Sequence record: OL657228.1
Source: Escherichia phage 21
Direction: 5' to 3' (one strand)
DNA: 42,931 nucleotides
How positions within the stretch are numbered: the first letter of the stretch is position 1; each line of letters starts with the position of its first letter. The notes beneath the pieces are model-generated. The model was given only the letters and a program-made list of their open reading frames with translations. It ran no database searches and had not been told where the DNA came from. The translations under genes were made by a program, and so were the position numbers. Below are positions 15,693 to 39,865 of this stretch, one piece after another.

Positions 15693-18600
15693 ATGGGTAA
15701 AGGCAGCAGTAAGGGGCATACCCCGCGCGAAGCGAAGGACAACCTGAAATCATCCCAGATGCTGAGCGTGATAGACGCCATCAGCGAAGGGCCGGTTGAA
15801 GGTCCGGTGGATGGATTAAAAAGCGTGCTGCTGAACAGTACGCCGGTGCTGGACAGTGAGGGGAATACCAATATATTCGGCGTCACGGTGGTGTTCCGGG
15901 CCGGTGAGCAGGAGCAGACACCGCCGGAGGGATTTGAATCCTCCGGCTCCGAGACGGTGCTCGGTACAGAAGTGAAATATGACACGCCGATCACCCGGAC
16001 CATCACGTCGGCAAACATTGACCGTCTGCGTTTTACTTTCGGCGTGCAGGCACTGGTGGAAACCACCTCAAAGGGGGACAGGAATCCATCGGAAGTCCGC
16101 CTGCTGGTTCAGATTCAACGTAACGGTGGCTGGGTGACGGAAAAAGACATCACCATTAAGGGCAAAACCACGTCGCAGTATCTGGCCTCGGTGGTGGTGG
16201 ATAACCTGCCGCCGCGCCCGTTTAATATCCGGATGCGCAGGATGACGCCGGACAGCACCACAGACCAGTTGCAGAACAAAACGCTCTGGTCGTCATACAC
16301 CGAAATCATCGATGTGAAACAGTGCTACCCGAACACGGCACTGGTCGGCGTACAGGTGGACTCGGAGCAGTTCGGCAGCCAGCAGGTGAGCCGTAATTAT
16401 CATCTTCGCGGGCGCATTCTGCAGGTGCCGTCGAACTATAACCCGCAGACGCGGCAATACAGCGGTATCTGGGACGGAACGTTTAAGCCAGCATACAGCA
16501 ACAACATGGCCTGGTGTCTGTGGGATATGCTGACCCATCCGCGCTACGGCATGGGGAAACGTCTTGGTGCGGCAGATGTGGATAAATGGGCGCTGTATGT
16601 CATCGGCCAGAATTGCGACCAGTCAGTGCCGGACGGCTTTGGCGGCACGGAGCCGCGCATCACCTGTAATGCGTACCTGACCACACAGCGCAAGGCGTGG
16701 GATGTGCTCAGTGATTTTTGCTCGGCGATGCGCTGTATGCCGGTATGGAACGGGCAGACGCTGACATTCGTGCAGGACCGACCGTCGGATAAGGTGTGGA
16801 CCTATAACCGCAGTAATGTGGTGATGCCGGATGATGGCGCGCCGTTCCGCTACAGCTTCAGCGCCCTGAAAGACCGCCATAATGCCGTTGAGGTGAACTG
16901 GATTGACCCGGATAACGGCTGGGAGACGGCGACAGAGCTTGTGGAGGACACGCAGGCCATTGCCCGTTACGGTCGTAACGTCACGAAGATGGATGCCTTT
17001 GGCTGTACCAGCCGGGGGCAGGCACACCGCGCCGGGCTGTGGCTGATTAAAACGGAGCTGCTGGAAACGCAGACCGTGGACTTCAGCGTGGGTGCAGAAG
17101 GGCTTCGCCATGTACCGGGCGATGTCATTGAAATCTGTGATGATGACTATGCGGGGATCAGCATCGGCGGGCGCGTGCTGGCGGTGAACAACCAGACGCG
17201 GACACTGACGCTCGACCGTGAAATCACGCTGCCATCCTCCGGCACCACGCTGATAAGCCTGGCTGACGGACAGGGGAATCCGGTCAGCGTGGAGGTCCAG
17301 TCCGTCACCGACGGCGTGAAGGTAAAAGTGAGCCGTGTTCCTGACGGCGTTGCAGAATACAGCGTGTGGGGGCTGAAGTTGCCAACGTTGCGCCAGCGCC
17401 TGTTCCGCTGTGTGAGTATCCGTGAGAACGATGACGGCACGTATGCCATCACTGCCGTGCAGCATGTACCGGAAAAAGAGGCCATCGTGGATAACGGGGC
17501 GCACTTTGACGGCGACCAGAGCGGCACGGTGAATGGTGTCACGCCGCCAGCGGTGCAGCACCTGACTGCCGAAGTCACCGCAGACAGCGGGGAATATCAG
17601 GTGCTGGCGCGCTGGGACACGCCGAAGGTGGTGAAGGGGGTGAGCTTTATGCTTCGCCTGACCGTGGCAGCGGATGACGGCAGTGAGCGGCTGGTCAGCA
17701 CGGCCCGGACGACGGAAACCACATACCGCTTCAGGCAACTGGCGCCAGGGAACTACAGGCTGACAGTCCGGGCGGTAAATGCGTGGGGGCAGCAGGGCGA
17801 TCCGGCATCGGTATCGTTCCGGATTGCCGCACCGGCAGCGCCGTCGCAGATTGAGCTGACACCGGGGTATTTTCAGATAACCGCCACGCCGCATCTTGCG
17901 GTTTATGATCCGACGGTACAGTTTGAGTTCTGGTTCTCGGAAAAGCGGATTGCGGATATCAGGCAGGTTGAAACCACAGCACGCTATCTTGGCACGGCGC
18001 TGTACTGGATAGCCGCCAGTATCAATATCAAACCGGGCCATGATTATTATTTTTACATCCGCAGTGTGAACACCGTTGGCAAATCGGCATTTGTGGAGGC
18101 TGTTGGCCAGCCGAGTGATGATGCATCCGGCTATCTGAATTTTTTCAAAGGAGAGATAGGGAAAACCCATCTGGCTCAGGAGTTGTGGACGCAGATTGAT
18201 AACGGTCAGCTTGCGCCTGACCTGGCTGAAATCAGGACGTCCATTACGGGTGTCAGCAATGAAATCACGCAGACCGTCAATAAGAAACTGGAAGACCAGA
18301 GTGCAGCGATCCAGCAGATACAGAAGGTTCAGGTTGATACAAATAATAACCTGAACAGCATGTGGGCTGTGAAGCTGCAGCAGATGCAGGACGGACGCCT
18401 TTATATCGCGGGTATTGGTGCCGGTGTTGAGAATACTCCTGACGGTATGCAGAGTCAGGTGCTGCTGGCGGCGGACAGGATTGCGATGATTAATCCTGCG
18501 AATGGCAACACAAAGCCGATGTTTGTTGGGCAGGGCGATCAGATATTCATGAACGAAGTGTTCCTGAAATATCTGACGGCTCCCACCATTACCAGCGGTG

Positions 18601-19175
18601 GCAATCCCCCAACGTTTTCACTGACACCTGATGGTCGACTTTCTGCGAAAAATGCGGATATCAGCGGTAACGTGAACGCGAACTCCGGGACGCTCAACAA
18701 CGTCACGATTAATCAGAACTGTCGGATTCTGGGAAAACTGTCAGCTAACCAGATTGAAGGTGATATTGTCAAAACGGTGGGAAAAGCCTTTCCGAGAAAT
18801 GGCAGTTATGCCAGCGGTACAATAACGGTCACTGTGTACGATGACCAGGCTTTTGACCGTCAGATAGTAGTCCCCCCCGTTCTGTTTCGTGGGGGTAAGC
18901 ATGAAAACTTCAACAGCAACAACCAACAGTCATACTGGTATTCAACCTGTAAGCTGCAGGTACTGAAGAACGGACAGGAAATCTTTCAGCAACCCGCGAC
19001 GGATGTCAGCAGGGTATTTTCATCAGTCATTGATATGCCTGCCGGACACGGCCATGTCACCCTGACTTTCAATGTTTCTTCATATGGTGCTAATAACTGG
19101 ACGCCAACGACCAGTATCAGCGACCTTCTTGTTGTTGTGATGAAGAAATCTACAGCCGGTATCAGTATCAGTTGA
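15693..19175 (+). CDS. J: central tail fibre / host specificity protein J
   Basis: 1160 aa; N-terminal about 950 aa nearly identical to recalled lambda gpJ ([20 protein letters not shown]...); C-terminal about 200 aa recognisably J-like but diverged. Confidence 0.93.
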
Positions 19176-19193
19176 ATTTTATAACCCAGATAC

Positions 19194-19220
19194 GGGCGCC
19201 AGAAATGGCGCCTTTTTTAT
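19194..19220 (+). terminator. rho-independent terminator after J
   Basis: GGCGCC-AGAAAT-GGCGCC hairpin followed by TTTTTTATTT immediately after the J stop codon (approximate coordinates). Confidence 0.7.
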
Positions 19221-19227
19221 TTGTGGA

Positions 19228-21294
19228 GTGAATATGGCAGTACAGATTTCAGGCGTGCTGAAAGACGGTGCAGGAAAACCGATACAGAACTGCACCATTC
19301 AGCTCAAAGCAAAACGTAACAGCACCACGGTTGTGGTGAACACGGTGGCCTCAGAAAATCCGGATGAAGCCGGACGTTACAGCATGGATGTCGAGTATGG
19401 CCAGTACAGCGTTATCCTGCTGGTTGAAGGTTTTCCGCCTTCACATGCCGGGGCCATCACCGTGTATGAGGATTCTAAGCCGGGGACATTGAATGATTTT
19501 CTGGGCGCTGCAACAGAAGATGATGTTCGTCCGGAGGCACTGTATCGTTTTGAAAAGATGGTGGAAGAGGTGGCACGCAACGCTGAAGCCGCCTCTCAGA
19601 GCGCAGCGGCAGCAAAGAAATCAGAAACAGCAGCGGCATCGTCCAGGAATGCGGCGAAAACATCAGAGACGAATGCAGGTAACAGCGCGAAAGCGGCAGC
19701 TTCTTCAAAAACAGCCGCACAAAACGCAGCAACAGCGGCAGAACGTTCAGAGACAAATGCCCGTGCGTCAGAAGAAGCCTCCGCAGACAGTGAAGAGGCT
19801 TCCCGCCGTAATGCAGAGTCAGCCGCTGAAAATGCCGGAGTCGCCACCACAAAAGCGCGGGAGGCCGCAGCAGACGCAACAAAGGCCGGGCAGAAAAAGG
19901 ATGAGGCTCTGTCGGCAGCGACACGGGCTGAAAAGGCGGCAGACCGCGCAGAAGTCGCAGCGGAAGTGACTGCAGAGCCCTATGCGAATATAGTGCCGCC
20001 GCTGCCTGATGTGTGGATACCGTTTAACGATTCACTGGATATGATTGCGGGTTTTTCTCCGGGCTATAAAAAAATAGCTATTGGTGACGATGTGGTTCAG
20101 GTCGCCAGTGATAAACAGGTTAATTTCAGTCGCGCATCAACGGCAACATATATCAACAAATCTGGCGAACTGAAAACGGCGGAAATTAATGAGCCGCGAT
20201 TTGAGTGTGATGGCCTGCTTATTGAGGGACAAAGAACGAACTACATGCTCAATTCGGAAAGTCCAGCCAGCTGGGGGAAGTCATCAAACATGGATGTGCC
20301 CGAAACCGGGACAGATAGTTTTGGTTTTACTTATGGAAAGTTTGTCTGCAACGATTCTCTGGTTGGGCAAACTTCGGCTATTAATATGGCATCAATTGCT
20401 GCAACAAAGTCAGTTGATGTCTCAGGCGATAACAAGTACGTGACAACCTCATGCCGTTTTAAAACAGAACGACAGGTAAGGTTACGTATACGGTTTGATA
20501 AGTATGATGGTAGTGCAACAACTTTTCTTGGCGATGCGTACATTGATACGCAAACGCTTGAAATTAATATGACAGGTGGGGCTGCCGGCAGAATTACGGC
20601 ACGAGTCAGGAAGGATAAGACCACAGGCTGGATTTTTGCAGAGGCAACGATTCAGGCAATTGATGGTGAGTTAAAAATAGGCTCTCAGATACAGTATTCT
20701 CCTGAGCGGGGTGGGGCAACAGTATCTGGTGACTATATTTATCTTGCCACCCCACAAGTAGAGAATGGGCCGTGTGTATCATCATTTATTATTTCAGGAG
20801 GCAGCGCAACGACAAGAGCCAGTGATTTGGTTAGTATCCCCACCAGAAATAATCTTTATAAGTTACCATTTACTTTTTTACTTGAGATTCATAAAAACTG
20901 GGATATTGCACCAAACGCCGCACCCCGCGTGTGGGATATAGCAGCAGCCAATACCGGGCAATCAGCAATTGCAGCAATCAACAGAGGTAGTGGTAAGTTA
21001 TATATGAGTCTGTCAAACCCTTCAGGCTTGTATGTTAATAGCGCAGCGACAGATGTATTTGCAGAGAAAACCACATTTGGATGTATTGCAAAAGCTGATG
21101 GTCACTTTCATGTGGTGACAAATGGTAAAGCGGTTAATGAAGTTTATTGTGAATATAATGGTGTGACCGCTGATAAAAATATCCGATTTGGAGGGCAGAC
21201 GAATACTGGAGAACGACATCTGTTTGGCCATATTCGCAATTTCCGCATATGGCATAAAGAATTAAATGACAGGCAATTAAAAGAGGTCGTATGA
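19228..21294 (+). CDS. stf: side tail fibre protein (Stf-like N-terminus, unrelated C-terminal domain)
   Basis: 688 aa; first about 90 aa near-identical to lambda Stf (MAVQISGVLKDGAGKPIQNCTIQLKA...), then an Ala/Ser/Glu-rich repetitive shaft, then a C-terminal half from about aa 250 with no Stf similarity and visibly lower GC. Confidence 0.8.
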   Translation: MNMAVQISGVLKDGAGKPIQNCTIQLKAKRNSTTVVVNTVASENPDEAGRYSMDVEYGQYSVILLVEGFPPSHAGAITVYEDSKPGTLNDFLGAATEDDVRPEALYRFEKMVEEVARNAEAASQSAAAAKKSETAAASSRNAAKTSETNAGNSAKAAASSKTAAQNAATAAERSETNARASEEASADSEEASRRNAESAAENAGVATTKAREAAADATKAGQKKDEALSAATRAEKAADRAEVAAEVTAEPYANIVPPLPDVWIPFNDSLDMIAGFSPGYKKIAIGDDVVQVASDKQVNFSRASTATYINKSGELKTAEINEPRFECDGLLIEGQRTNYMLNSESPASWGKSSNMDVPETGTDSFGFTYGKFVCNDSLVGQTSAINMASIAATKSVDVSGDNKYVTTSCRFKTERQVRLRIRFDKYDGSATTFLGDAYIDTQTLEINMTGGAAGRITARVRKDKTTGWIFAEATIQAIDGELKIGSQIQYSPERGGATVSGDYIYLATPQVENGPCVSSFIISGGSATTRASDLVSIPTRNNLYKLPFTFLLEIHKNWDIAPNAAPRVWDIAAANTGQSAIAAINRGSGKLYMSLSNPSGLYVNSAATDVFAEKTTFGCIAKADGHFHVVTNGKAVNEVYCEYNGVTADKNIRFGGQTNTGERHLFGHIRNFRIWHKELNDRQLKEVV

Positions 21295-21569
21295 AAGATT
21301 TAACTTTGAAGTTTCATGACAAACTGCAGTTTAAGGCCTTCCTGTCATCTCTTGACTGGGAGGAGGATGAAGACCTCCAGAATAAACTGTTAGTCGATGA
21401 AATTGGTTTCACCTACACAGAAACAGGGGTAACAGAAGAGGGAGAACCTGTCTGTGTCCGGAATGACGGTTATTTTGTCAACATTCGCATTCTTGATGAC
21501 TTGTTTGATGTTTCTGTATTCTCTGATTATGTCGTGGAGCTGGAAACACCGCTTCGGGAATGGAGCTGA
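21291..21569 (+). CDS. hypothetical small acidic protein, start overlapping the tail fibre stop (ATGA)
   Basis: 92 aa, about 25% Asp+Glu; start overlaps the stf stop, suggesting coupled translation; no family recognised. Could be a fibre chaperone or something else. Confidence 0.45.
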   Translation: MKDLTLKFHDKLQFKAFLSSLDWEEDEDLQNKLLVDEIGFTYTETGVTEEGEPVCVRNDGYFVNIRILDDLFDVSVFSDYVVELETPLREWS

Positions 21570-21581
21570 AAGGAGGAAATA

Positions 21582-21875
21582 ATGGATATAAGCCCCTTAC
21601 TTCATGCGCTTTGTGCTGTGGCTGCGCAGATACTGGTTGGTCTTTTTACCGGAAACTGGGCTTACGGAGCGATAGCCGGTTGTACGTTCTTCATTGCGCG
21701 TGAACATACCCAGGCAGAATATCGCTGGATTGAAATGTTCGGGCATGGCAAGCGAATGAATATGCCGTGGTGGGGCGGTTTTGATCCGCGAGCTTGGGAT
21801 GTGGCAAGCCTGATGGATTTTGCTGTGCCGGTGGTGGCGTGTCTGCTGGTCTGGCTGTTGGTTAATCGTGGGTGA
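21582..21875 (+). CDS. hypothetical small membrane protein
   Basis: 97 aa with two hydrophobic segments (LLHALCAVAAQILVGLF and FAVPVVACLLVWLLV); SD-like GGAGG upstream; no family recognised. Confidence 0.45.
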   Translation: MDISPLLHALCAVAAQILVGLFTGNWAYGAIAGCTFFIAREHTQAEYRWIEMFGHGKRMNMPWWGGFDPRAWDVASLMDFAVPVVACLLVWLLVNRG

Positions 21876-21966: not shown

Positions 21967-22824
21967 CTAATTGGGTGATAACAGATCCTGTGTATGGGAG
22001 TTTCCCTTTTTGCGTGCGTTGATGCTGGTAACGGCAAACGTCATGATGAACAAAACCGCGAATAAGACGACAATCGTCGGAGCTGGTGCGCTGTCGATAA
22101 AAAAGGACAACCAGACACCAGTCATTGACACTATTACCGATATGCCAGTCGCCAGTAGGAGCGCAATATGAAAGCGTTGTGTCAGGAGTACCGCAATGGC
22201 GCCAGGCGCAATGAGCAGAGAAATGGAGAGAATGATACCTACCGCTTTCAGCGTCGCCACAATGGTCAGAGAGACCATGCACAGCAGCCCATAATGCAGC
22301 CATCTCGTATGCAAACCGCTTACCTGCGCCTGTTGATAATCAAAGCTGAACAGCAAAAAATCCCGCCATTTTACGCTAATAACAAGTGTAACCAGCCCGG
22401 CAATAATCATCGTCTGGATTATATCGCCGATGGTTATCCCGAGCATGTCGCCGAAAAGAATATGGTCAAGATGTACGTCTGGTTTGACTGCAATATACAA
22501 GATCAGACCTGCGGCAAACATGCCAGAAAAAACAATCCCCATCACTGTATCTTGCTTGATTCGGCTGTTGTCTTTCAGGTATCCCGTCGCCACCGCGCAG
22601 AATACTCCGGCGACGAATGCCCCTGTAGCCAAAGGTAACCCCAGAATCCAGGCAAGCACGATTCCAGGAAAAACCGCATGACTCATCGCGTCACCCATCA
22701 GTGCCCAACCTTTCAGGACCAGAAAGACCGACAGCAGCGCACAGGGTATGGAAACTACCAGTGAAATCAGCAGTGCGTGACTCATAAAGGTGAACTGCAG
22801 TGGCTCCAGTAATAATGCCATCAT
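21967..22824 (-). CDS. sitD: Mn/Fe ABC transporter permease SitD
   Basis: 285 aa polytopic membrane protein, paralogous to the adjacent SitC and last gene of the four-gene minus-strand operon. Confidence 0.85.
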   Translation of the reverse strand: MMALLLEPLQFTFMSHALLISLVVSIPCALLSVFLVLKGWALMGDAMSHAVFPGIVLAWILGLPLATGAFVAGVFCAVATGYLKDNSRIKQDTVMGIVFSGMFAAGLILYIAVKPDVHLDHILFGDMLGITIGDIIQTMIIAGLVTLVISVKWRDFLLFSFDYQQAQVSGLHTRWLHYGLLCMVSLTIVATLKAVGIILSISLLIAPGAIAVLLTQRFHIALLLATGISVIVSMTGVWLSFFIDSAPAPTIVVLFAVLFIMTFAVTSINARKKGNSHTQDLLSPN

Positions 22825-23678
22825 GAGCGATCCTCCAGCGCCTTATGCGCACGCCGACGATTTGCCAAAAGCCCATGGGTGGGCGCAAAGACAAATGCTA
22901 AAAGAAACAGCAGTGTCTGCGCCACCACGATGATTCCACCTGTCGCGCCGTCCAGAAAGTAACTGACCCACGCGCCGAGGAAACTGGTCACACTGCCAAT
23001 AGTTACAGCAATCATGAGCAGGCGGGGAAAACGATCGGTTAACAACCATGCTGTTGCACCGGGAGTCACCACCAGACAGATCACCAGAAAGGCACCAACC
23101 GTTTGCAGCGCCGCAACGGTCGAAACCGACAGCAGGGTGAAGAAGATGAGTTTTAATCTGCCCGGATGCAATCCAATAGCACGGGCGTGATTCTCGTCGA
23201 AAAAGGTCACCATAAGATCTTTCCATTTGAAAAAAAGCACGATGATCGAGAGAATGCCAATGATAGTGAGTTGCAGGATATCCGCCGGATCGATTGCCAG
23301 AATATTGCCCAGGACGATGGTCTGAATGTTCACAGATGTCGGGTTCAATGACACCATAAACAGCCCCAGGCCAAAAAAGGACGAGAAGATCAGACCGATG
23401 ATGGCATCTTCTTTTAAGCGGGTGCGTTGGTTAAGAAACAGCATGCTGCCCGCAGCCAGTCCGCCGGAAAAGAAGGCTCCCAGAGAAAACGGAAGCCCCA
23501 GCATATATGCCCCCGCAACACCCGGGACAATAGAGTGCGACAACGCATCGCCAATCAGCGACCAGCCTTTTAGCATCAGATAGCATGACAGGAAAGCGCA
23601 GAGACCGCCGACCATCGCCGAGACCCACATCGCATTGAGCATATATTCATAGCTGAAGGGTTCCAGTAGCACGTTCAT
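22821..23678 (-). CDS. sitC: Mn/Fe ABC transporter permease SitC
   Basis: 285 aa polytopic membrane protein with ABC-3 permease character; overlaps sitB and sitD by 4 nt. Confidence 0.85.
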
Positions 23679-24502
23679 CTTTCTTCCCTCTGCACCGCTG
23701 ACGGTCGATGAGCCACAAAAGGGCGTTCATCGTCAGTAATAATGCTTTCTTCCGAGCCGTTAAGTGTGACATGGCGCAGTACGCCGCTAAAAGCCAGCTC
23801 TAGGTTCTCGGCTGTAAAAGTGGTGTCTGTCGGCCCGCTTGCCAGGACGGTGCCTTTGACCATGACCGTATAATCGCAAAATGTCGTGACGGATCCGAGA
23901 TTGTGTGTTGAGACAAGCATCGTTTTGCCTTCCGCGCGTAACTCCCTCAACAGGCTGATGATTTTGGCTTCGGTTTTCACATCAACGCCAGTAAAAGGTT
24001 CATCCAGCAGGATCACATCACCCTGCTGTGCAATCGCTCTCGCCAGAAAGACGCGTTTCTTTTGTCCACCGGAAAGCTCGCCGATTTGTCGATGGCGAAA
24101 ATTCACCATATCGACACGTTCCAGCGCATCGGTGACAATTTGACGATCCCTCTTTTTGGCGATACGCAACATACCCATATGCCCATAGCGGCCCATCATC
24201 ACCACATCTTCCACCAGTACAGGAAATGACCAGTCAACATCTTCTGACTGAGGGACGTAGGCAACCAGGTTTTTCTGTAACGCCTGTCGCGTGGGAATAC
24301 CCAGAACAGATATCTTTCCGCTGGTCAGACGCACAAATCCCATAATCGCTTTAAACAACGTCGATTTTCCGGAACCGTTTACCCCAACCAGAGCGGCAAT
24401 AGATCCACTTGGTACTGTGAAGGATGCATCGCGCAGTGCTGTGTGCCCGTTACGCCAGGTGACAGTAACATCATTAACGACAATGCCTGCAGATTGCATC
24501 AT
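23675..24502 (-). CDS. sitB: Mn/Fe ABC transporter ATP-binding protein SitB
   Basis: Walker [13 protein letters not shown] signature LSGGQKKRV, Walker B ILLDEP. Confidence 0.9.
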
Positions 24503-25416
24503 TATTTCTCCCTTTTCCCAGCTTTAATTCCCTGTACCAGCGTACTGGTAGTAACCTTAAGAAGGTCGATATACGTCGGTACCGGGCCGTTTTCTGTGCT
24601 CAGGGAATCGACATAGAGCACACCGCCGTAGTGTGCGCCGGTTTCACGCGCAACCTGACGCGCTGGTTTATCGGAAATCGTACTCTCGCTAAAGACTGCC
24701 GGGATATGATTTTTCTTAACTATATCAACAACCTTACGTACCTGCTGCGGTGTTCCTTGTTGATCGGCATTAATCGGCCACAGATAAAGCTCTTTTAGCC
24801 CCAAATCGCGTGCGAGATAAGAAAAAGCCCCTTCACTGGTGACCATCCATCGCTGATTCTCAGGGAGTTCCGTAATCTGCTTACGCAGGGGGGCAAGGGT
24901 TTGGGTAATCTTGGCTTTATAAGTATCGGCATTGCGTTGGTAGGTTTGTGCATTTGCCGGATCGTATTTTATCAACGCATCACGAATATTATCGACGTAA
25001 ATCAGAGCATTATCTGGCGACATCCATGCATGGGGGTTAGGTTTGCCCTCATAGGGTCCTTCGGTGATCCCTACAGGCGTCACACCCGAAGAGACAATTA
25101 CTTCTGGAACCCCATTGAGATGCTGGTAAAAGCGTTGGAACCACAATTCCAGATTCATACCATTGGCGAGAATCAGTTGTGCCCCCTGCGCACGTTTAAT
25201 ATCGCCAGGGGTAGGCTGATACTCATGAATTTCTGCACCAGGCCTGGTTATGGATGAGACTTCTGCAGCATCTCCCGCCACGTTTTTGGCCATATCCGCG
25301 ATGATGGTAAATGTTGTAATGACCTTGAATTTTTCAGTTGCACTTGCCTGAAATGCGATCGAGCAGGTGAGTGCGAGGCCCCCCAAGAGCATGGTTACTT
25401 TTTTTATTGAGTGCAT
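24502..25416 (-). CDS. sitA: periplasmic Mn/Fe-binding protein SitA
   Basis: 304 aa with N-terminal signal peptide ([26 protein letters not shown]); first gene of the operon; resembles cluster A-I metal-binding proteins. Confidence 0.88.
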
Positions 25417-27332: not shown

Positions 27333-27497
27333 CTGCTGCGCCATATGGGCTGGACTGAAGCCGCAGACCTGATTGTTAAAGGTATGGAAGGCGCAATCAA
27401 CGCCAAGACCGTAACCTATGACTTCGAACGTCTGATGGAAGGCGCTAAACTGCTGAAATGCAGCGAGTTTGGTGACGCGATCATCAAAAATATGTAA
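27333..27497 (+). other. icd': phage-borne icd 3' end (replacement C-terminus of isocitrate dehydrogenase)
   Basis: In-frame translation ...[54 protein letters not shown] is the Icd C-terminus with a few substitutions, followed by a hairpin terminator (ACGGGCGT...ACGCCCGT, about 27520..27545). Confidence 0.85.
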
Positions 27498-27564
27498 TTA
27501 CCACATGTGTTAAATATTATAACGGGCGTATAACACGCCCGTTGTTTTATGATGATGTAAAATC

Positions 27565-27600
27565 TTCCCCAAAACTTTCCCCAAAACCCTTCCCCAAAAC
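27565..27600 (+). repeat. three tandem arm-type integrase binding sites (P' arm), consensus YTTCCCCAAAAC
   Basis: cttccccaaaac / tttccccaaaac / cttccccaaaac in direct tandem just inside the int 3' end (approximate coordinates). Confidence 0.7.
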
Positions 27601-27610
27601 TGGCTATTTT

Positions 27611-28753
27611 CTATGCTGTTTTGATATCTACGATAATCCAGTCTTTACCACGATCATCATTGTATCGGTCGGTCATTTTTCTGGATTTATGGCCTAACAA
27701 CTTTTGCGTATCCAGACCCTGTTCCCGATATAATCGTTCTGACAGAGATCGCTGTTCATGAAATGTGGGCGCAGTTCCTTGCTCCCATTTTATGCCACAT
27801 TTTTCCTTGGCCTTTTTAAAAGCCGTTGTCAGAGTATTTGCAGAAACCTGGTCTCCTCTGTTTGCTTGAGAGGTAGTGTGACGGTAATGGACCAGATATT
27901 TACTAACAACAGCATCCCTGCACTGAGATATAACTTCACGAAGGGTAATATTCAGAGCATCGCATTTCAGGTTAAGCGGAATAGCAAGTTTTGAACCGGT
28001 TTTTTCCTGAGTAATGTGCAACATGTCGTCCCATATATCAGAGAATTTCAAATTGCAGATATCGCCTAAACGTTGTCCAGTAACAAGAGCAAGTAGCATG
28101 CCGCATTTTAAATAGGGCTGCCGTCTGCTTACGCTTTCAAATATTGCCTGCCATTCGAGCAGTGACAATCTTTGGCGGTTTACTCGATTTCGCGGTTGTT
28201 TTGTTGCCTGCGCTGGGTTAAATCCTGGCGGAACATGTCCTGCGTGTTGTGCTTCTTTGAAGACGTCGATCAACACCATTCTCACGACTTGCGCCATCCT
28301 GTTATGACCTTCAGCCTTTACAGCATCAATTATTTCGGCAATATCAAGTGCGGTAATATCCTTGAGGTGTTGCATTCCACAATGCTCACGGAAAAGACGA
28401 ATGGGTTTGCCTTTTTGCCGATAGGAGTTGGGTCTTAGTTCATTATGTTGCAGCCTGTCCTCCTGGATAGAAATATATTTATCAAGCCATTCTGTCACCG
28501 TAATGTCTGAGCGCCTGCCTTTCATTCTTTCCAGACGCTCATTGACGCTTAATATTTGTCTGGTACGTTGTTCAGCAATAATGGTATTTGCTTCAGTAGC
28601 AACTTGTTTTGCTTCATTCTCATCAGTTCCTAAGCTATGAAAACGACCGGATAGTGGATGTTTGTATTGCCAATATACCTTTCCGGTTCGCTTATCTAAT
28701 TTGCAATATAAATTGGGTATAGAGATTTTGTGAGATCGGGGTCTAGCAGCCAT
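27611..28753 (-). CDS. int: tyrosine integrase (lambda-type, icd-targeting)
   Basis: 380 aa; N-terminal arm-binding-like domain, C-terminal catalytic region with ...HEQRSLSERLY...LLGHKSRKMTDRY (R..H..R..Y); adjacent to attP and xis. Confidence 0.92.
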   Translation of the reverse strand: MAARPRSHKISIPNLYCKLDKRTGKVYWQYKHPLSGRFHSLGTDENEAKQVATEANTIIAEQRTRQILSVNERLERMKGRRSDITVTEWLDKYISIQEDRLQHNELRPNSYRQKGKPIRLFREHCGMQHLKDITALDIAEIIDAVKAEGHNRMAQVVRMVLIDVFKEAQHAGHVPPGFNPAQATKQPRNRVNRQRLSLLEWQAIFESVSRRQPYLKCGMLLALVTGQRLGDICNLKFSDIWDDMLHITQEKTGSKLAIPLNLKCDALNITLREVISQCRDAVVSKYLVHYRHTTSQANRGDQVSANTLTTAFKKAKEKCGIKWEQGTAPTFHEQRSLSERLYREQGLDTQKLLGHKSRKMTDRYNDDRGKDWIIVDIKTA

Positions 28754-38196: not shown

Positions 38197-38363
38197 TTGA
38201 CCCAAATCGAAGTTACGAACAAGAAAGCGTCGAGCGGGCTTTAACGTGCGCTAATTGCGGTCAGAAGCTGCATGTGCTGGAAGTTCACGTGTGTGAGTAC
38301 TGCTGTGCAGAGCTGATGAGCGATTCGAATAGCTCGATGCACGAGGAAGAAGATGATGGCTAA
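38193..38363 (+). CDS. ninF: NinF-like small protein
   Basis: GTG start ([37 protein letters not shown]...) with SD GAGGA 8 nt upstream; Cys-rich; resembles lambda NinF from memory. Confidence 0.6.
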
Positions 38364-38967
38364 ACCAGCGCGAAGACGATGTAAAAACGATGAATGTCGG
38401 GAATGGTTTCACCCTGCATTCGCTAATCAGTGGTGGTGCTCTCCAGAGTGTGGAACCAAGATAGCACTCGAACGACGAAGTAAAGAACGCGAAAAAGCGG
38501 AAAAAGCAGCAGAGAAGAAACGACGACGAGAGGAGCAGAAACAGAAAGATAAACTTAAGATTAGAAAACTCGCCTTAAAGCCCCGCAGTTACTGGATTAA
38601 ACAAGCCCAACAAGCCGTAAACGCCTTCATCAGAGAAAGAGACCGCGACTTACCATGTATCTCTTGCGGAACGCTCACGTCTGCTCAGTGGGATGCCGGA
38701 CATTACCGGACAACTGCTGCGGCACCTCAACTCCGATTTGATGAACGCAATATTCACAAGCAATGCGTGGTGTGCAACCAGCACAAAAGCGGAAATCTCG
38801 TTCCGTATCGCGTCGAACTGATTAGCCGCATCGGGCAGGAAGCAGTAGACGAAATCGAATCAAACCATAACCGCCATCGCTGGACTGTCGAAGAGTGCAG
38901 GGCCATCAAGGCGGAGTATCAGCAGAAACTCAAAGACCTGCGAAACAGCAGAAGTGAGGCCGCATGA
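38353..38967 (+). CDS. ninG: NinG (Rap) recombination endonuclease
   Basis: 204 aa, [34 protein letters not shown]..., matches lambda NinG. Confidence 0.92.
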
Positions 38968-39010
38968 CGTTCTCAGTAAAAACCATTCCAGATCACAAGG
39001 GAGAAGGCGC

Positions 39011-39499
39011 ATGGGCATAAGAGAACTAAACCTCACCAAAGAACAGCACGAGTGGCTGAATGGCTGGCTTGAACTGTGGGGCGCATGGGTTTATTCAGGT
39101 CGTCTGGAAAAGCGCATGAGCAGCGTAATAGCTAAGTTCATGGAGAGCGTAGAGCCGGGAAGAGTTATGACAAGGCCAATGTGTAATGATGATGATGGAA
39201 TGTTGATTTCTCAGGTCGTCGATTCCGTCATGTACATTGACAAGAAAGCCTTTGGCATCCTCCTCAGCTACTACGCCCACGGCTCTTCCAAGCACGCCAT
39301 TGCATCTTACTATCATCGCGTCGCAAGACCTCGCAAGATGTTATGCCGGGGCGGCGGGCGCATTCAAAAACCATCGCTCGCAACCTGTCGACGGGAAGTT
39401 GACGAAATCCTCAATGCCTCGTTGTTTATGATTTACCCGGTTCTGGATAGTGCGTTTAAAAACCGGAAACGTGTAGAGAAAATTAAACATGTAGCATAG
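39011..39499 (+). CDS. Q: late-gene antiterminator Q (non-lambda, phage-21-like type)
   Basis: 162-aa frame from MGIRELNLTKEQHEWL with SD GGAGAAGG upstream; sits between the nin genes and the pR'/tR' region; no similarity to lambda Q, so identity rests on position and size. Confidence 0.6.
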   Translation: MGIRELNLTKEQHEWLNGWLELWGAWVYSGRLEKRMSSVIAKFMESVEPGRVMTRPMCNDDDGMLISQVVDSVMYIDKKAFGILLSYYAHGSSKHAIASYYHRVARPRKMLCRGGGRIQKPSLATCRREVDEILNASLFMIYPVLDSAFKNRKRVEKIKHVA

Positions 39500-39544
39500 A
39501 ACGTGTTGACATCATTGAGCAAATGAGCAACACTATTCGCATAA

Positions 39545-39590
39545 GCTGCCGTTAGTGACTCTTAAGTTGCAACGGTGGCTTTTTTTATTT
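39545..39590 (+). terminator. tR'-like terminator downstream of Q (with pR' candidate about 39505..39540)
   Basis: GCCGTT...AACGGTGGC hairpin followed by TTTTTTTATTT; TTGACA -35-like hexamer just after the Q stop (approximate coordinates). Confidence 0.6.
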
Positions 39591-39665
39591 GGGTCAGTCG
39601 TATAAAGGTCATTACGGAAGGCTGTTAACCTTCTTATCGTGGTTCGAGTCCACGCTGTCCCGCCA
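39591..39665 (+). tRNA. tRNA-like gene, anticodon GUU (Asn) by hand folding, atypical D-arm
   Basis: 75 nt by hand fold: acceptor GGGTCAG/CTGTCCC (one mismatch), anticodon stem GGAAG/CCTTC with loop CUGUUAA, T-arm CGTGG-TTCGAGT-CCACG, 3' CCA encoded (approximate coordinates). Confidence 0.55.
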
Positions 39666-39670
39666 AACAT

Positions 39671-39746
39671 GCTGGTTTAGCTCCAATGGTAGAGCAGTCG
39701 CCTTGTAAGCGAATGGGTAGCGGTTCAAGTCCGTTAACCAGCACCA
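39671..39746 (+). tRNA. tRNA-like gene, anticodon UGU (Thr) by hand folding
   Basis: About 76 nt: acceptor GCTGGTT/AACCAGC, D-arm TAGCTCCAATGGTAGAGCA, anticodon loop CUUGUAA, T-loop TTCAAGT, 3' ACCA (approximate coordinates; anticodon assignment tentative). Confidence 0.55.
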
Positions 39747-39865
39747 TAACTGAGCCGTAGCCACTGGCTATCATGAATTCATCAGTGATAGTTACGCTGC
39801 GGCCTTCTTTTTTTCCCCTTCCCAATATAAGAACTACGCAATCCGTTACTGGCGGAGGCGTTGCT

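What the first reader, a model, noticed from the sequence alone, without database searches (positions are those of the whole stretch)
18120..19175. Diverged central and C-terminal regions of J (host-specificity protein)
J is nearly identical to lambda J for about 800 residues, then diverges in a central patch (about residues 815-930) and in the last about 150 residues (...[74 protein letters not shown]). That is the receptor-binding end that contacts LamB in lambda, so this phage likely uses a different outer-membrane receptor.
Basis: partly seen in the sequence, partly recalled or inferred. Interest (0 to 1): 0.4.

Follow-up and report, generated by a model that had tools for sequence, protein, structure and literature searches.

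The report
Lambda-like tail tip with OmpC-type end
The tail-tip protein J of this lambda-like phage carries swapped-in shaft and receptor-binding modules that match J variants shown to bind the porin OmpC rather than LamB; the same allele is already sequenced in isolated phages and many E. coli genomes, so the finding is correct but ordinary.

Summary
J (window 15693-19175, 1160 aa) is 96.9% identical to lambda J over residues 1-805. It then diverges in two places:
- A helical-shaft module, aa 806-898, is 44% identical and 28 aa longer than in lambda.
- The receptor-binding domain (RBD), aa 1021-1160, is 48% identical.
- The stretch between them is about 70% identical.

The two patches are separately exchangeable cassettes. 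Phage PhiR46_1 has the same shaft and prism (97%) with another RBD. Phage 4A7 has a lambda-type shaft with this RBD (99%).

- The RBD is 81% identical to 'A8 gpJ', solved in complex with OmpC (PDB 9WCB), and to phage phi330, shown to need OmpC by knockout and complementation.
- It sits in a clade (197/200 bootstraps) whose other tested member, 1A2, also uses OmpC.
- The two hairpins predicted to contact OmpC in phi330 are identical here.

I found no receptor test for this exact allele, so OmpC use is inferred. A third bottom loop differs from A8, so OmpC-variant preference may differ.

The allele is ≥99.9% identical at DNA level in three isolated phages (ev017, PhiR57_1, PhiR63_2). The 1056-base stretch is 100% identical in many E. 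coli chromosomes. Low novelty.

The parts
15693..18107 (+). J residues 1-805: tail-tip hub domains and two FNIII/Ig domains, lambda-type
   Evidence: 780/805 aa identical to lambda J, 94.5% at DNA level. Pfam domains FNIII-A_GpJ, Phage-tail_3, Ig_J and Ig_J_second are present.
18108..18386 (+). J residues 806-898: alpha-helical shaft (AHS) module, long variant, 28 aa longer than in lambda
   Evidence: 44% identity to lambda over 65 alignable residues, plus a 28-aa gap. 97% identical to PhiR46_1 and 93% to PPompW_EH1846; 56-61% to the long shafts of phi330 and Stx1 phages. It aligns to the lambda region called AHS in PMC11101478. AlphaFold2 predicts helices at aa 811-888, but in a low-confidence monomer model.
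18387..18752 (+). J residues 899-1020: beta-prism 'central straight fibre' (CSF), moderately diverged, with the conserved stretch where natural and engineered recombination junctions lie
   Evidence: 70% identical to lambda, 97% to PhiR46_1 and 79% to 4A7. Pfam Phage_Tail_Tip covers aa 872-1000. Identity to 4A7 becomes 93-100% from about nt 18540 (one 60-nt window at 0.77), and identity to PhiR46_1 collapses after about nt 18780.
18753..19175 (+). J residues 1021-1160 plus stop codon: Ig-like receptor-binding domain of the A8/phi330 (OmpC-binding) clade
   Evidence: Identities: 48% to lambda, 42% to 434, 81% to A8 gpJ, 80% to phi330, 99% to 4A7. Best PDB sequence hit is 9wca/9wcb 'A8 gpJ 713' at E = 3.5e-152. 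Best fold hits are 9wca and 9wcb at 83% identity. Pfam Ig_GpJ_C is present.
18789..18815 (+). Bottom loop L1 (aa 1033-1041, FPRNGSYAS)
   Evidence: It is a loop between strands in the AlphaFold2 model. It reads NGS here, TNS in A8 and TST in phi330, where the loop is T918-Y921. It is variable among homologues.
18903..18932 (+). Bottom hairpin L2 (aa 1071-1080, [10 protein letters not shown])
   Evidence: Identical to phi330 E953-S962, the hairpin predicted by AlphaFold3 to point into the OmpC barrel (PMC12502783; mapping). It is also identical in A8.
18987..19013 (+). Bottom loop L3 (aa 1099-1107, QQPATDVSR)
   Evidence: 6 of 9 residues differ from A8 and phi330 (NQSTTDAQG). It is among the most variable stretches in homologues. 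It is a candidate determinant of OmpC-variant preference; that role is inferred.
19089..19106 (+). Bottom loop L4 (aa 1133-1138, ANNWTP)
   Evidence: [quoted passage not shown] The neighbouring residue Y1131 is S in A8.

Best explanation
The J gene is a natural mosaic. A lambda-type hub and FNIII body (aa 1-805) is joined to a long-variant helical shaft and beta-prism cassette (aa 806 to about 1030), and then to a receptor-binding domain cassette (from about aa 950-1030 to 1160). The RBD belongs to the A8/phi330 clade of J RBDs.

Proposed mechanism: the trimeric Ig-like RBD docks its bottom loops onto the trimeric porin OmpC instead of LamB. As shown for lambda with LamB and for A8 with OmpC, binding would then drive the closed-to-open rearrangement of prism and shaft that opens the tail tip.

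What is shown: the mosaic structure, module boundaries, fold and clade membership. What is inferred: OmpC use by this exact allele and the conformational mechanism.
For: 1. Module structure. Per-domain identities and sliding DNA identity show sharp boundaries at about nt 18110, about 18540 and about 18780. PhiR46_1 shares FNIII, shaft and prism at 97-98% but has a 64%-identical RBD. 4A7 has a lambda-type short shaft but a 99%-identical RBD. G+C drops at the first boundary.

2. Solved relatives. The best PDB hit is 'A8 gpJ 713' (9wca/9wcb), E = 3.5e-152. 9wcb also contains three OmpC chains. It is titled 'Open state of A8 gpJ 713 central tail fiber with OmpC G17 from E. coli EDL933'. The AlphaFold2 model of aa 960-1160 (RBD blocks at pLDDT 71-96) hits 9wca and 9wcb first, then lambda 8xck and 8xcj.

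3. Genetics. A8 and 1A2 chimeras deliver DNA to a lamB/ompC double-deletion strain only when a suitable OmpC is supplied (PMC11338833). phi330 fails on an ompC deletion strain and is rescued by complementation (PMC12502783).

4. Phylogenetic bracket. In a neighbour-joining tree the window RBD is sister to the A8/phi330 type. The 1A2 type is the outgroup within a clade that excludes lambda, 434 and Fels-1 in 197 of 200 bootstraps. The assignment of 1A2 to the PPompW/PhiR5_1 type rests on a frameshift-tolerant reading of machine-read supplement DNA, at 96% identity.

5. Contact loops. The phi330 hairpins predicted to contact Omp[11 protein letters not shown] and ANNWTP, are identical in the window.
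Against: - I found no adsorption, plating or binding data for this exact RBD allele. Mathieu et al. 2020 only report four J clusters that did not track host range (PMC6969025).
- 19% of RBD residues differ from A8, including 6 of 9 in bottom loop L3 and 2-3 in L1.
- In lambda, four or so substitutions in these loops can add OmpF as a receptor (background knowledge, Meyer et al. 2012), so 81% identity does not guarantee the same porin.
- The phi330 contact residues come from an AlphaFold3 prediction, not from coordinates I could inspect. I could not read the interface of 9WCB.
- Deep in the family, identity does not track receptor: 434 uses OmpC at 42% identity, and lambda uses LamB at 48%.
Confidence: 0.8

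Rival explanations
1. The RBD has shifted to a different general porin or other outer-membrane protein (OmpF, PhoE, NmpC/Lc-type, OmpN and so on). It might instead need a particular OmpC variant class so narrowly that standard K-12 OmpC is not a receptor.
For: L3 differs at 6 of 9 positions and L1 at 2-3 positions from A8. These loops are the most variable in the family. A8 and 1A2 already differ in which OmpC variants they accept; 1A2 does not use K-12 OmpC. Few mutations suffice for lambda J to gain OmpF (background knowledge).
Against: L2 and L4, the hairpins predicted to contact OmpC, are identical to the OmpC binders. The phylogenetic bracket by two OmpC users has 197/200 support. PhiR57_1 and PhiR47_2, whose last 152 J residues are identical to the window's, were propagated on ECOR13 and E. 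coli C respectively, so the allele is not confined to one strain background.
Confidence: 0.13
2. The divergence is neutral or antigenic drift without a change of receptor, and the phage still uses LamB like lambda.
For: The fold and many framework residues are conserved with lambda (DMPAG, FDRQ, KK..GIS). Relatives with other receptors show that overall identity is a poor predictor at depth.
Against: The RBD is 48% identical to lambda but 81% to RBDs that work in lamB deletion cells and bind OmpC. All four bottom loops differ from lambda in length or sequence. The sharp DNA breakpoints and the G+C shift indicate cassette replacement, not drift.
Confidence: 0.04
3. J is not the effective host-range determinant here. 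Adsorption would be governed by the side tail fibre (Stf, 19228-21294), with the J tip playing only a structural role.
For: An intact 688-aa Stf with a ConA/laminin-G-like C-terminal domain follows J directly. Mathieu et al. found that J clusters did not match host range.
Against: In lambda, A8 chimeras and phi330, J-receptor binding is required for DNA delivery whatever the Stf. The J ORF is intact, and its RBD is conserved at 99-100% across many phages, which argues that it is under functional constraint.
Confidence: 0.03

Closest known systems
A8 gpJ (chimera of lambda J 1-964 and a natural E. coli prophage J C-terminus; Brödel et al. 2024, PMC11338833; PDB 9WCA closed state, 9WCB open state with OmpC)
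   Same: Same Ig-like RBD clade, 81-83% identical over the RBD. Bottom hairpins L2 ([10 protein letters not shown]) and L4 (ANNWTP) and the C-terminal strand are identical. Same conserved junction region upstream of the RBD.
   Different: 27 of 140 RBD residues differ, concentrated in L1, L3 and two strands. A8 carries lambda's short helical shaft, whereas the window has the 28-aa-longer shaft. The receptor is proven for A8 and only inferred here.
Phage vB_EcoS_phi330 J (Pankowvirus; OmpC shown by Keio knockout and complementation, PMC12502783)
   Same: RBD 80-81% identical. It also has a long-type shaft (61% identical), and its predicted OmpC-contact hairpins are identical.
   Different: Its hub and FNIII body is much more diverged (80% in aa 600-805, and its J is 1042 aa). 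It has lom after J. It is an Stx2a phage with a different genome backbone.
Lambda J (LamB; PDB 8XCJ, 8XCK, 8IYK)
   Same: Same protein family and domain order. 96.9% identical for aa 1-805, with the same RBD fold.
   Different: Shaft 28 aa shorter and 44% identical. RBD 48% identical, with different bottom loops. Uses LamB.
Phage 434 J (OmpC, the classical lambda h434 hybrid)
   Same: A lambda-type body with a swapped C-terminus that redirects the phage to OmpC. This is the same principle of modular receptor switching.
   Different: Its RBD is only 42-43% identical and lies outside the A8/window/1A2 clade. Its OmpC binding is probably an independent solution.
Isolated phages ev017, PhiR57_1, PhiR63_2, 1H12, 4A7 and prophages of B2 E. 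coli (Nissle 1917, NU14, ATCC 11775)
   Same: The whole J gene is 99.9% identical at DNA level in ev017, PhiR57_1 and PhiR63_2. The last 152 J residues are 100% identical in protein in PhiR57_1, PhiR47_2, 1H12 and Lambda_ev066. The 1056-nt finding is 100% identical in many chromosomes.
   Different: Nothing relevant differs in J. I found no receptor reported for them.

Membership tests
Lambda-type tail tip attachment protein J (NCBIfam NF049904 lambda_TipJ) | Full-length match to the curated family model above its cutoff | tested here: met
   2384 bits against a cutoff of 1950, covering aa 1-1160 against profile positions 1-1163.
Lambda-type tail tip attachment protein J (NCBIfam NF049904 lambda_TipJ) | Domain order: hub, two FNIII/Ig domains, helical shaft, beta-prism, C-terminal Ig-like RBD | tested here: met
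   Pfam domains appear in the expected order: FNIII-A_GpJ, Phage-tail_3, Ig_J, Ig_J_second, Phage_Tail_Tip, Ig_GpJ_C. Helices are predicted at aa 811-888. The RBD model hits the J RBD structures.
Lambda-type tail tip attachment protein J (NCBIfam NF049904 lambda_TipJ) | Genomic position after tail genes M, L, K and I, and before the side tail fibre gene | tested here: met
   ORFs matching lambda L, K and I lie upstream and stf lies downstream. The annotation of 99%-identical ev017 and PhiR57_1 agrees.
OmpC-binding J RBD clade (A8/phi330 type and 1A2 type) | RBD sequence groups with experimentally OmpC-dependent RBDs to the exclusion of LamB-type lambda | tested here: met
   81% identical to A8 and phi330, 64-68% to the 1A2 type, 48% to lambda. 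The clade bipartition is found in 197 of 200 bootstraps.
OmpC-binding J RBD clade (A8/phi330 type and 1A2 type) | Conservation of the loops that contact OmpC | tested here: inconclusive
   The L2 and L4 hairpins predicted by AlphaFold3 for phi330 are identical. L1 and L3 differ. The true interface in 9WCB could not be read with these tools.
OmpC-binding J RBD clade (A8/phi330 type and 1A2 type) | Infection or DNA delivery depends on OmpC and not on LamB | not testable with these tools
   This needs plating or adsorption on ompC and lamB deletion hosts. I found no published test of this allele.
LamB-binding lambda-type RBD | High identity to the lambda RBD, including bottom loops L1-L4 | tested here: not met
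   48% identity. All four loops differ in sequence or length.

The most novel reading that the evidence does not exclude
This very common allele, found in sit-operon lambdoid prophages of B2/ExPEC E. coli, may have retuned loops L1 and L3. On this reading it would recognise a different porin or a specific class of OmpC variants. J allele distribution would then reflect porin-variant partitioning among E. coli lineages. The 28-aa longer helical shaft might also alter the trigger for tail opening.
Probability: 0.12. Interest if true: 0.35.

Novelty: already known. Interest (0 to 1): 0.15.

Why it matters
It shows how lambdoid phages change receptors by swapping a roughly 140-200-residue cassette at conserved junctions. 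That is the same junction region engineers use to retarget lambda particles. The practical use is modest. It gives a receptor prediction (OmpC) for a widespread family of sit-operon-carrying prophages, including those of Nissle 1917 and the isolated phages ev017 and PhiR57_1. It also points to loops L1 and L3 as candidates for OmpC-variant specificity. It does not reveal a new kind of system.

Tried and rejected
- **Direct receptor data.** I looked for published tests on phages with the identical RBD. The PhiR phages appear only in the SNIPE preprint, which gives no receptors for them. Mathieu et al. 2020 report four J clusters but no receptors. Searches on ev017, 1H12, 4A7 and on long-tailed Stx phages gave nothing further. 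One literature search failed on term format.
- **The 1A2 sequence.** The 1A2 C-terminal DNA from the supplement gave no blastn match in the phage collection. The text is machine-read with many single-base losses. I therefore wrote a frameshift-tolerant DNA-to-protein alignment; a first version timed out and the second worked. Percentages for 1A2, and for A8 from that source, are approximate. The clean A8 sequence came from PDB 9wca.
- **The 2026 receptor-prediction preprint.** It covers Drexlerviridae-type GpJ and excludes lambda-type RBDs, so it was not informative.
- **Porin-replacement idea.** I considered that a prophage porin gene might support OmpC use through receptor replacement. ev017 has an OmpC-family porin (64% identical to K-12 OmpC) between Q and the holin gene, but the window lacks that segment. 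I do not use it as evidence.
- **Shaft and prism model.** The monomer AlphaFold2 model of aa 801-1000 is poor (mean pLDDT 46.5). Only its helix prediction is cited, as weak support.
- **Other strand.** No ORF of 80 aa or more lies in other frames or on the opposite strand within 18171-19175. The long antisense ORF at 16623-18170 lies in the G+C-rich part of J and has no support as a gene.

Full report
**What is there.** The finding lies in the 3' third of one intact ORF, window 15693..19175 (+). The ORF encodes a 1160-aa protein. It matches the curated lambda_TipJ model end to end (2384 bits against a cutoff of 1950). It has the full set of J Pfam domains in order: FNIII-A_GpJ, Phage-tail_3, Ig_J, Ig_J_second, Phage_Tail_Tip and Ig_GpJ_C. 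The window is a whole lambdoid phage genome. It is 99.4% identical over nt 10-29667 to isolated phage ev017, with tail genes L, K and I upstream and a side tail fibre gene downstream.

**Check of the observation.** Against lambda J (NC_001416), BLASTP gives 83% identity overall.
- Residues 1-805 are 780/805 identical, 94.5% at DNA level.
- In 90-nt windows, DNA identity is about 90-99% up to about nt 18110.
- It is below 50% over about 18123-18392, where there is an 84-nt insertion.
- It is 60-84% over 18393-18707 and about 50% from 18708 to the stop.
- G+C falls from 0.59 in the conserved part to 0.47-0.52 in the diverged parts.

The strongly diverged central patch is aa 806-898 and includes a 28-aa insertion. 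The stretch between the two patches (aa 899-1020) is itself only about 70% identical.

- The central patch corresponds to the AHS. Here it is 28 residues longer than in lambda, which would be four heptads if it forms a regular coiled coil (not tested).
- A monomer AlphaFold2 model of aa 801-1000 is of low confidence (mean pLDDT 46.5). It does predict helices over aa 811-888, including one continuous helix at 842-888.
- The model of aa 960-1160 is better in the RBD (10-residue blocks at pLDDT 71-96) and shows a beta-sandwich.
- From that model and the alignments I place the bottom loops at L1 aa 1033-1041, L2 1071-1080, L3 1099-1107 and L4 1133-1138.

**The two patches are independent cassettes.** Identities of the window J to relatives, by domain:

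| Relative | FNIII (600-805) | AHS (806-898) | CSF (899-1020) | RBD (1021-1160) |
|---|---|---|---|---|
| PhiR46_1 | 98% | 97% | 97% | 64% |
| 4A7 | 97% | 44% (short type) | 79% | 99% |
| lambda | 95% | 44% | 70% | 48% |
| 434 | 97% | 46% | 72% | 42% |
| phi330 | 80% | 61% | 72% | 80% |

Sliding DNA identity puts the PhiR46_1 breakpoint at about nt 18780, the start of the RBD at the conserved KAFPR motif. The 4A7 breakpoint is at about nt 18540, in the conserved FMNEVFLK...[12 protein letters not shown] stretch. That stretch is the same region Brödel et al. chose as the junction for engineered chimeras, lambda aa 964.

**Which receptor.** Four lines of evidence point to OmpC.

*Solved structures.* The best PDB sequence match of the C-terminal 360 aa is 'A8 gpJ 713' (9wca/9wcb, E = 3.5e-152), ahead of lambda J. 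Entry 9wcb also holds three OmpC chains. Its title is 'Open state of A8 gpJ 713 central tail fiber with OmpC G17 from E. coli EDL933'. The model's best fold hits are 9wca and 9wcb at 83% identity, followed by lambda 8xck and 8xcj.

*Genetics.* A8 and a second chimera, 1A2, were selected on a lamB deletion recipient. They deliver DNA to a lamB/ompC double-deletion strain only when an accepted OmpC variant is supplied. A8 works with K-12 OmpC, and 1A2 works with other variants such as EDL933's (PMC11338833). Phage phi330, whose RBD is 99% identical to A8, does not plate on a Keio ompC deletion strain and is rescued by Plac-ompC (PMC12502783; identities).

*Phylogenetic bracket.* I reconstructed the A8 and 1A2 C-termini from machine-read supplement DNA with a frameshift-tolerant alignment.
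- A8 matches the phi330/2H10 type at 94-96%.
- 1A2 matches the PPompW/PhiR5_1 type at 96%.
- The window RBD is 81% identical to A8 and 64% to 1A2.

In a neighbour-joining tree of 15 RBDs, the window (with 4A7 and Stx1_132418) is sister to the A8/phi330 group. The 1A2 group is the next branch. This clade is separated from lambda, 434 and Fels-1 in 197 of 200 bootstraps. Both flanking groups use OmpC.

*Contact loops.* The phi330 authors' AlphaFold3 model places hairpin E953-S962 inside the OmpC barrel and A1015-P1020 on its rim. These are [10 protein letters not shown] and ANNWTP. Both are identical in the window, at aa 1071-1080 and 1133-1138.

**Limits.** I found no experiment on this exact allele.
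- The ECOR-derived PhiR phages appear only in a preprint that gives no receptors for them.
- Mathieu et al. 2020, who isolated ev017, 1H12, 4A7 and others, report four J clusters without receptor tests.
- The window RBD differs from A8 at 27 of 140 positions, including 6 of 9 in L3 (QQPATDVSR against NQSTTDAQG) and 2-3 in L1. These are also the most variable positions among homologues.
- A8 and 1A2 already differ in which OmpC variants they accept. A difference in OmpC-variant preference is therefore plausible, and a shift to another porin cannot be excluded.
- I could not read the 9WCB interface.

I put OmpC use at about 0.8.

**Comparison with what is known, and novelty.** This is the classical modular receptor switch of lambdoid J proteins, as in the lambda h434 hybrid.
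- The same J gene is 99.9% identical at DNA level in the isolated phages ev017, PhiR57_1 and PhiR63_2.
- The last 152 J residues are 100% identical in protein in PhiR57_1, PhiR47_2, 1H12 and Lambda_ev066.
- The 1056-nt region of the finding is 100% identical in many E. coli chromosomes, including ATCC 11775, Nissle 1917 and NU14.
- It is at least 99% identical in 267 records.
- Homologous RBDs are abundant in E. coli protein collections.

It is an already sequenced allele of a known kind, so interest is low.

Noticed in passing
window 21967-25416 (- strand): A sitABCD iron/manganese ABC transporter operon is carried as cargo between the tail-fibre genes and the integrase. The same operon is annotated in ev017 and PhiR57_1. 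Mathieu et al. found it in about 70% of infant-gut lambda phages.
   Followed up: partly
window 19176-21875: There is no lom gene after J, unlike lambda, 434 and phi330. J is followed after 52 nt by a 688-aa side tail fibre (19228-21294). That fibre has a lambda-type N-terminus and a ConA/laminin-G-like C-terminal domain. Two small ORFs of unknown function follow: 92 aa (phrog_1361) and 97 aa (phrog_1443, probably a membrane protein).
   Followed up: partly
window 19194-19219: A terminator-like hairpin, GGCGCC-AGAAAT-GGCGCC followed by a run of T, lies in the J-stf intergenic spacer.
   Followed up: no
L014 (ev017) 45281-46423, - strand; absent from the window (window 38198-39865 differs): The closest relative, ev017, has the same J and encodes an OmpC-family porin between Q and the holin gene. 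The porin is 64% identical to K-12 OmpC and passes the NCBIfam OmpC subfamily cutoff. This recalls the lc/nmpC porin genes of OmpC-using lambdoid phages. The window carries a different Q-region segment without a porin.
   Followed up: partly
window about 27345-28753: By offset from the ev017 annotation, an icd (isocitrate dehydrogenase) 3' fragment lies next to the integrase. This is the phage-21-type attachment site described for prophage NC-SV of E. coli NC101. That prophage encodes the sRNA svsR at the 3' end of cI and represses lamB (PMC12803456). I did not check whether svsR is present in this window.
   Followed up: no
window 16623-18170 (- strand): A 515-aa open frame runs antisense to the G+C-rich, lambda-like part of J. 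It is probably a compositional artefact rather than a gene.
   Followed up: no
window 20000-21500: G+C falls to 0.38-0.46 across the C-terminal half of stf and the 92-aa ORF. This suggests another horizontally exchanged cassette.
   Followed up: no
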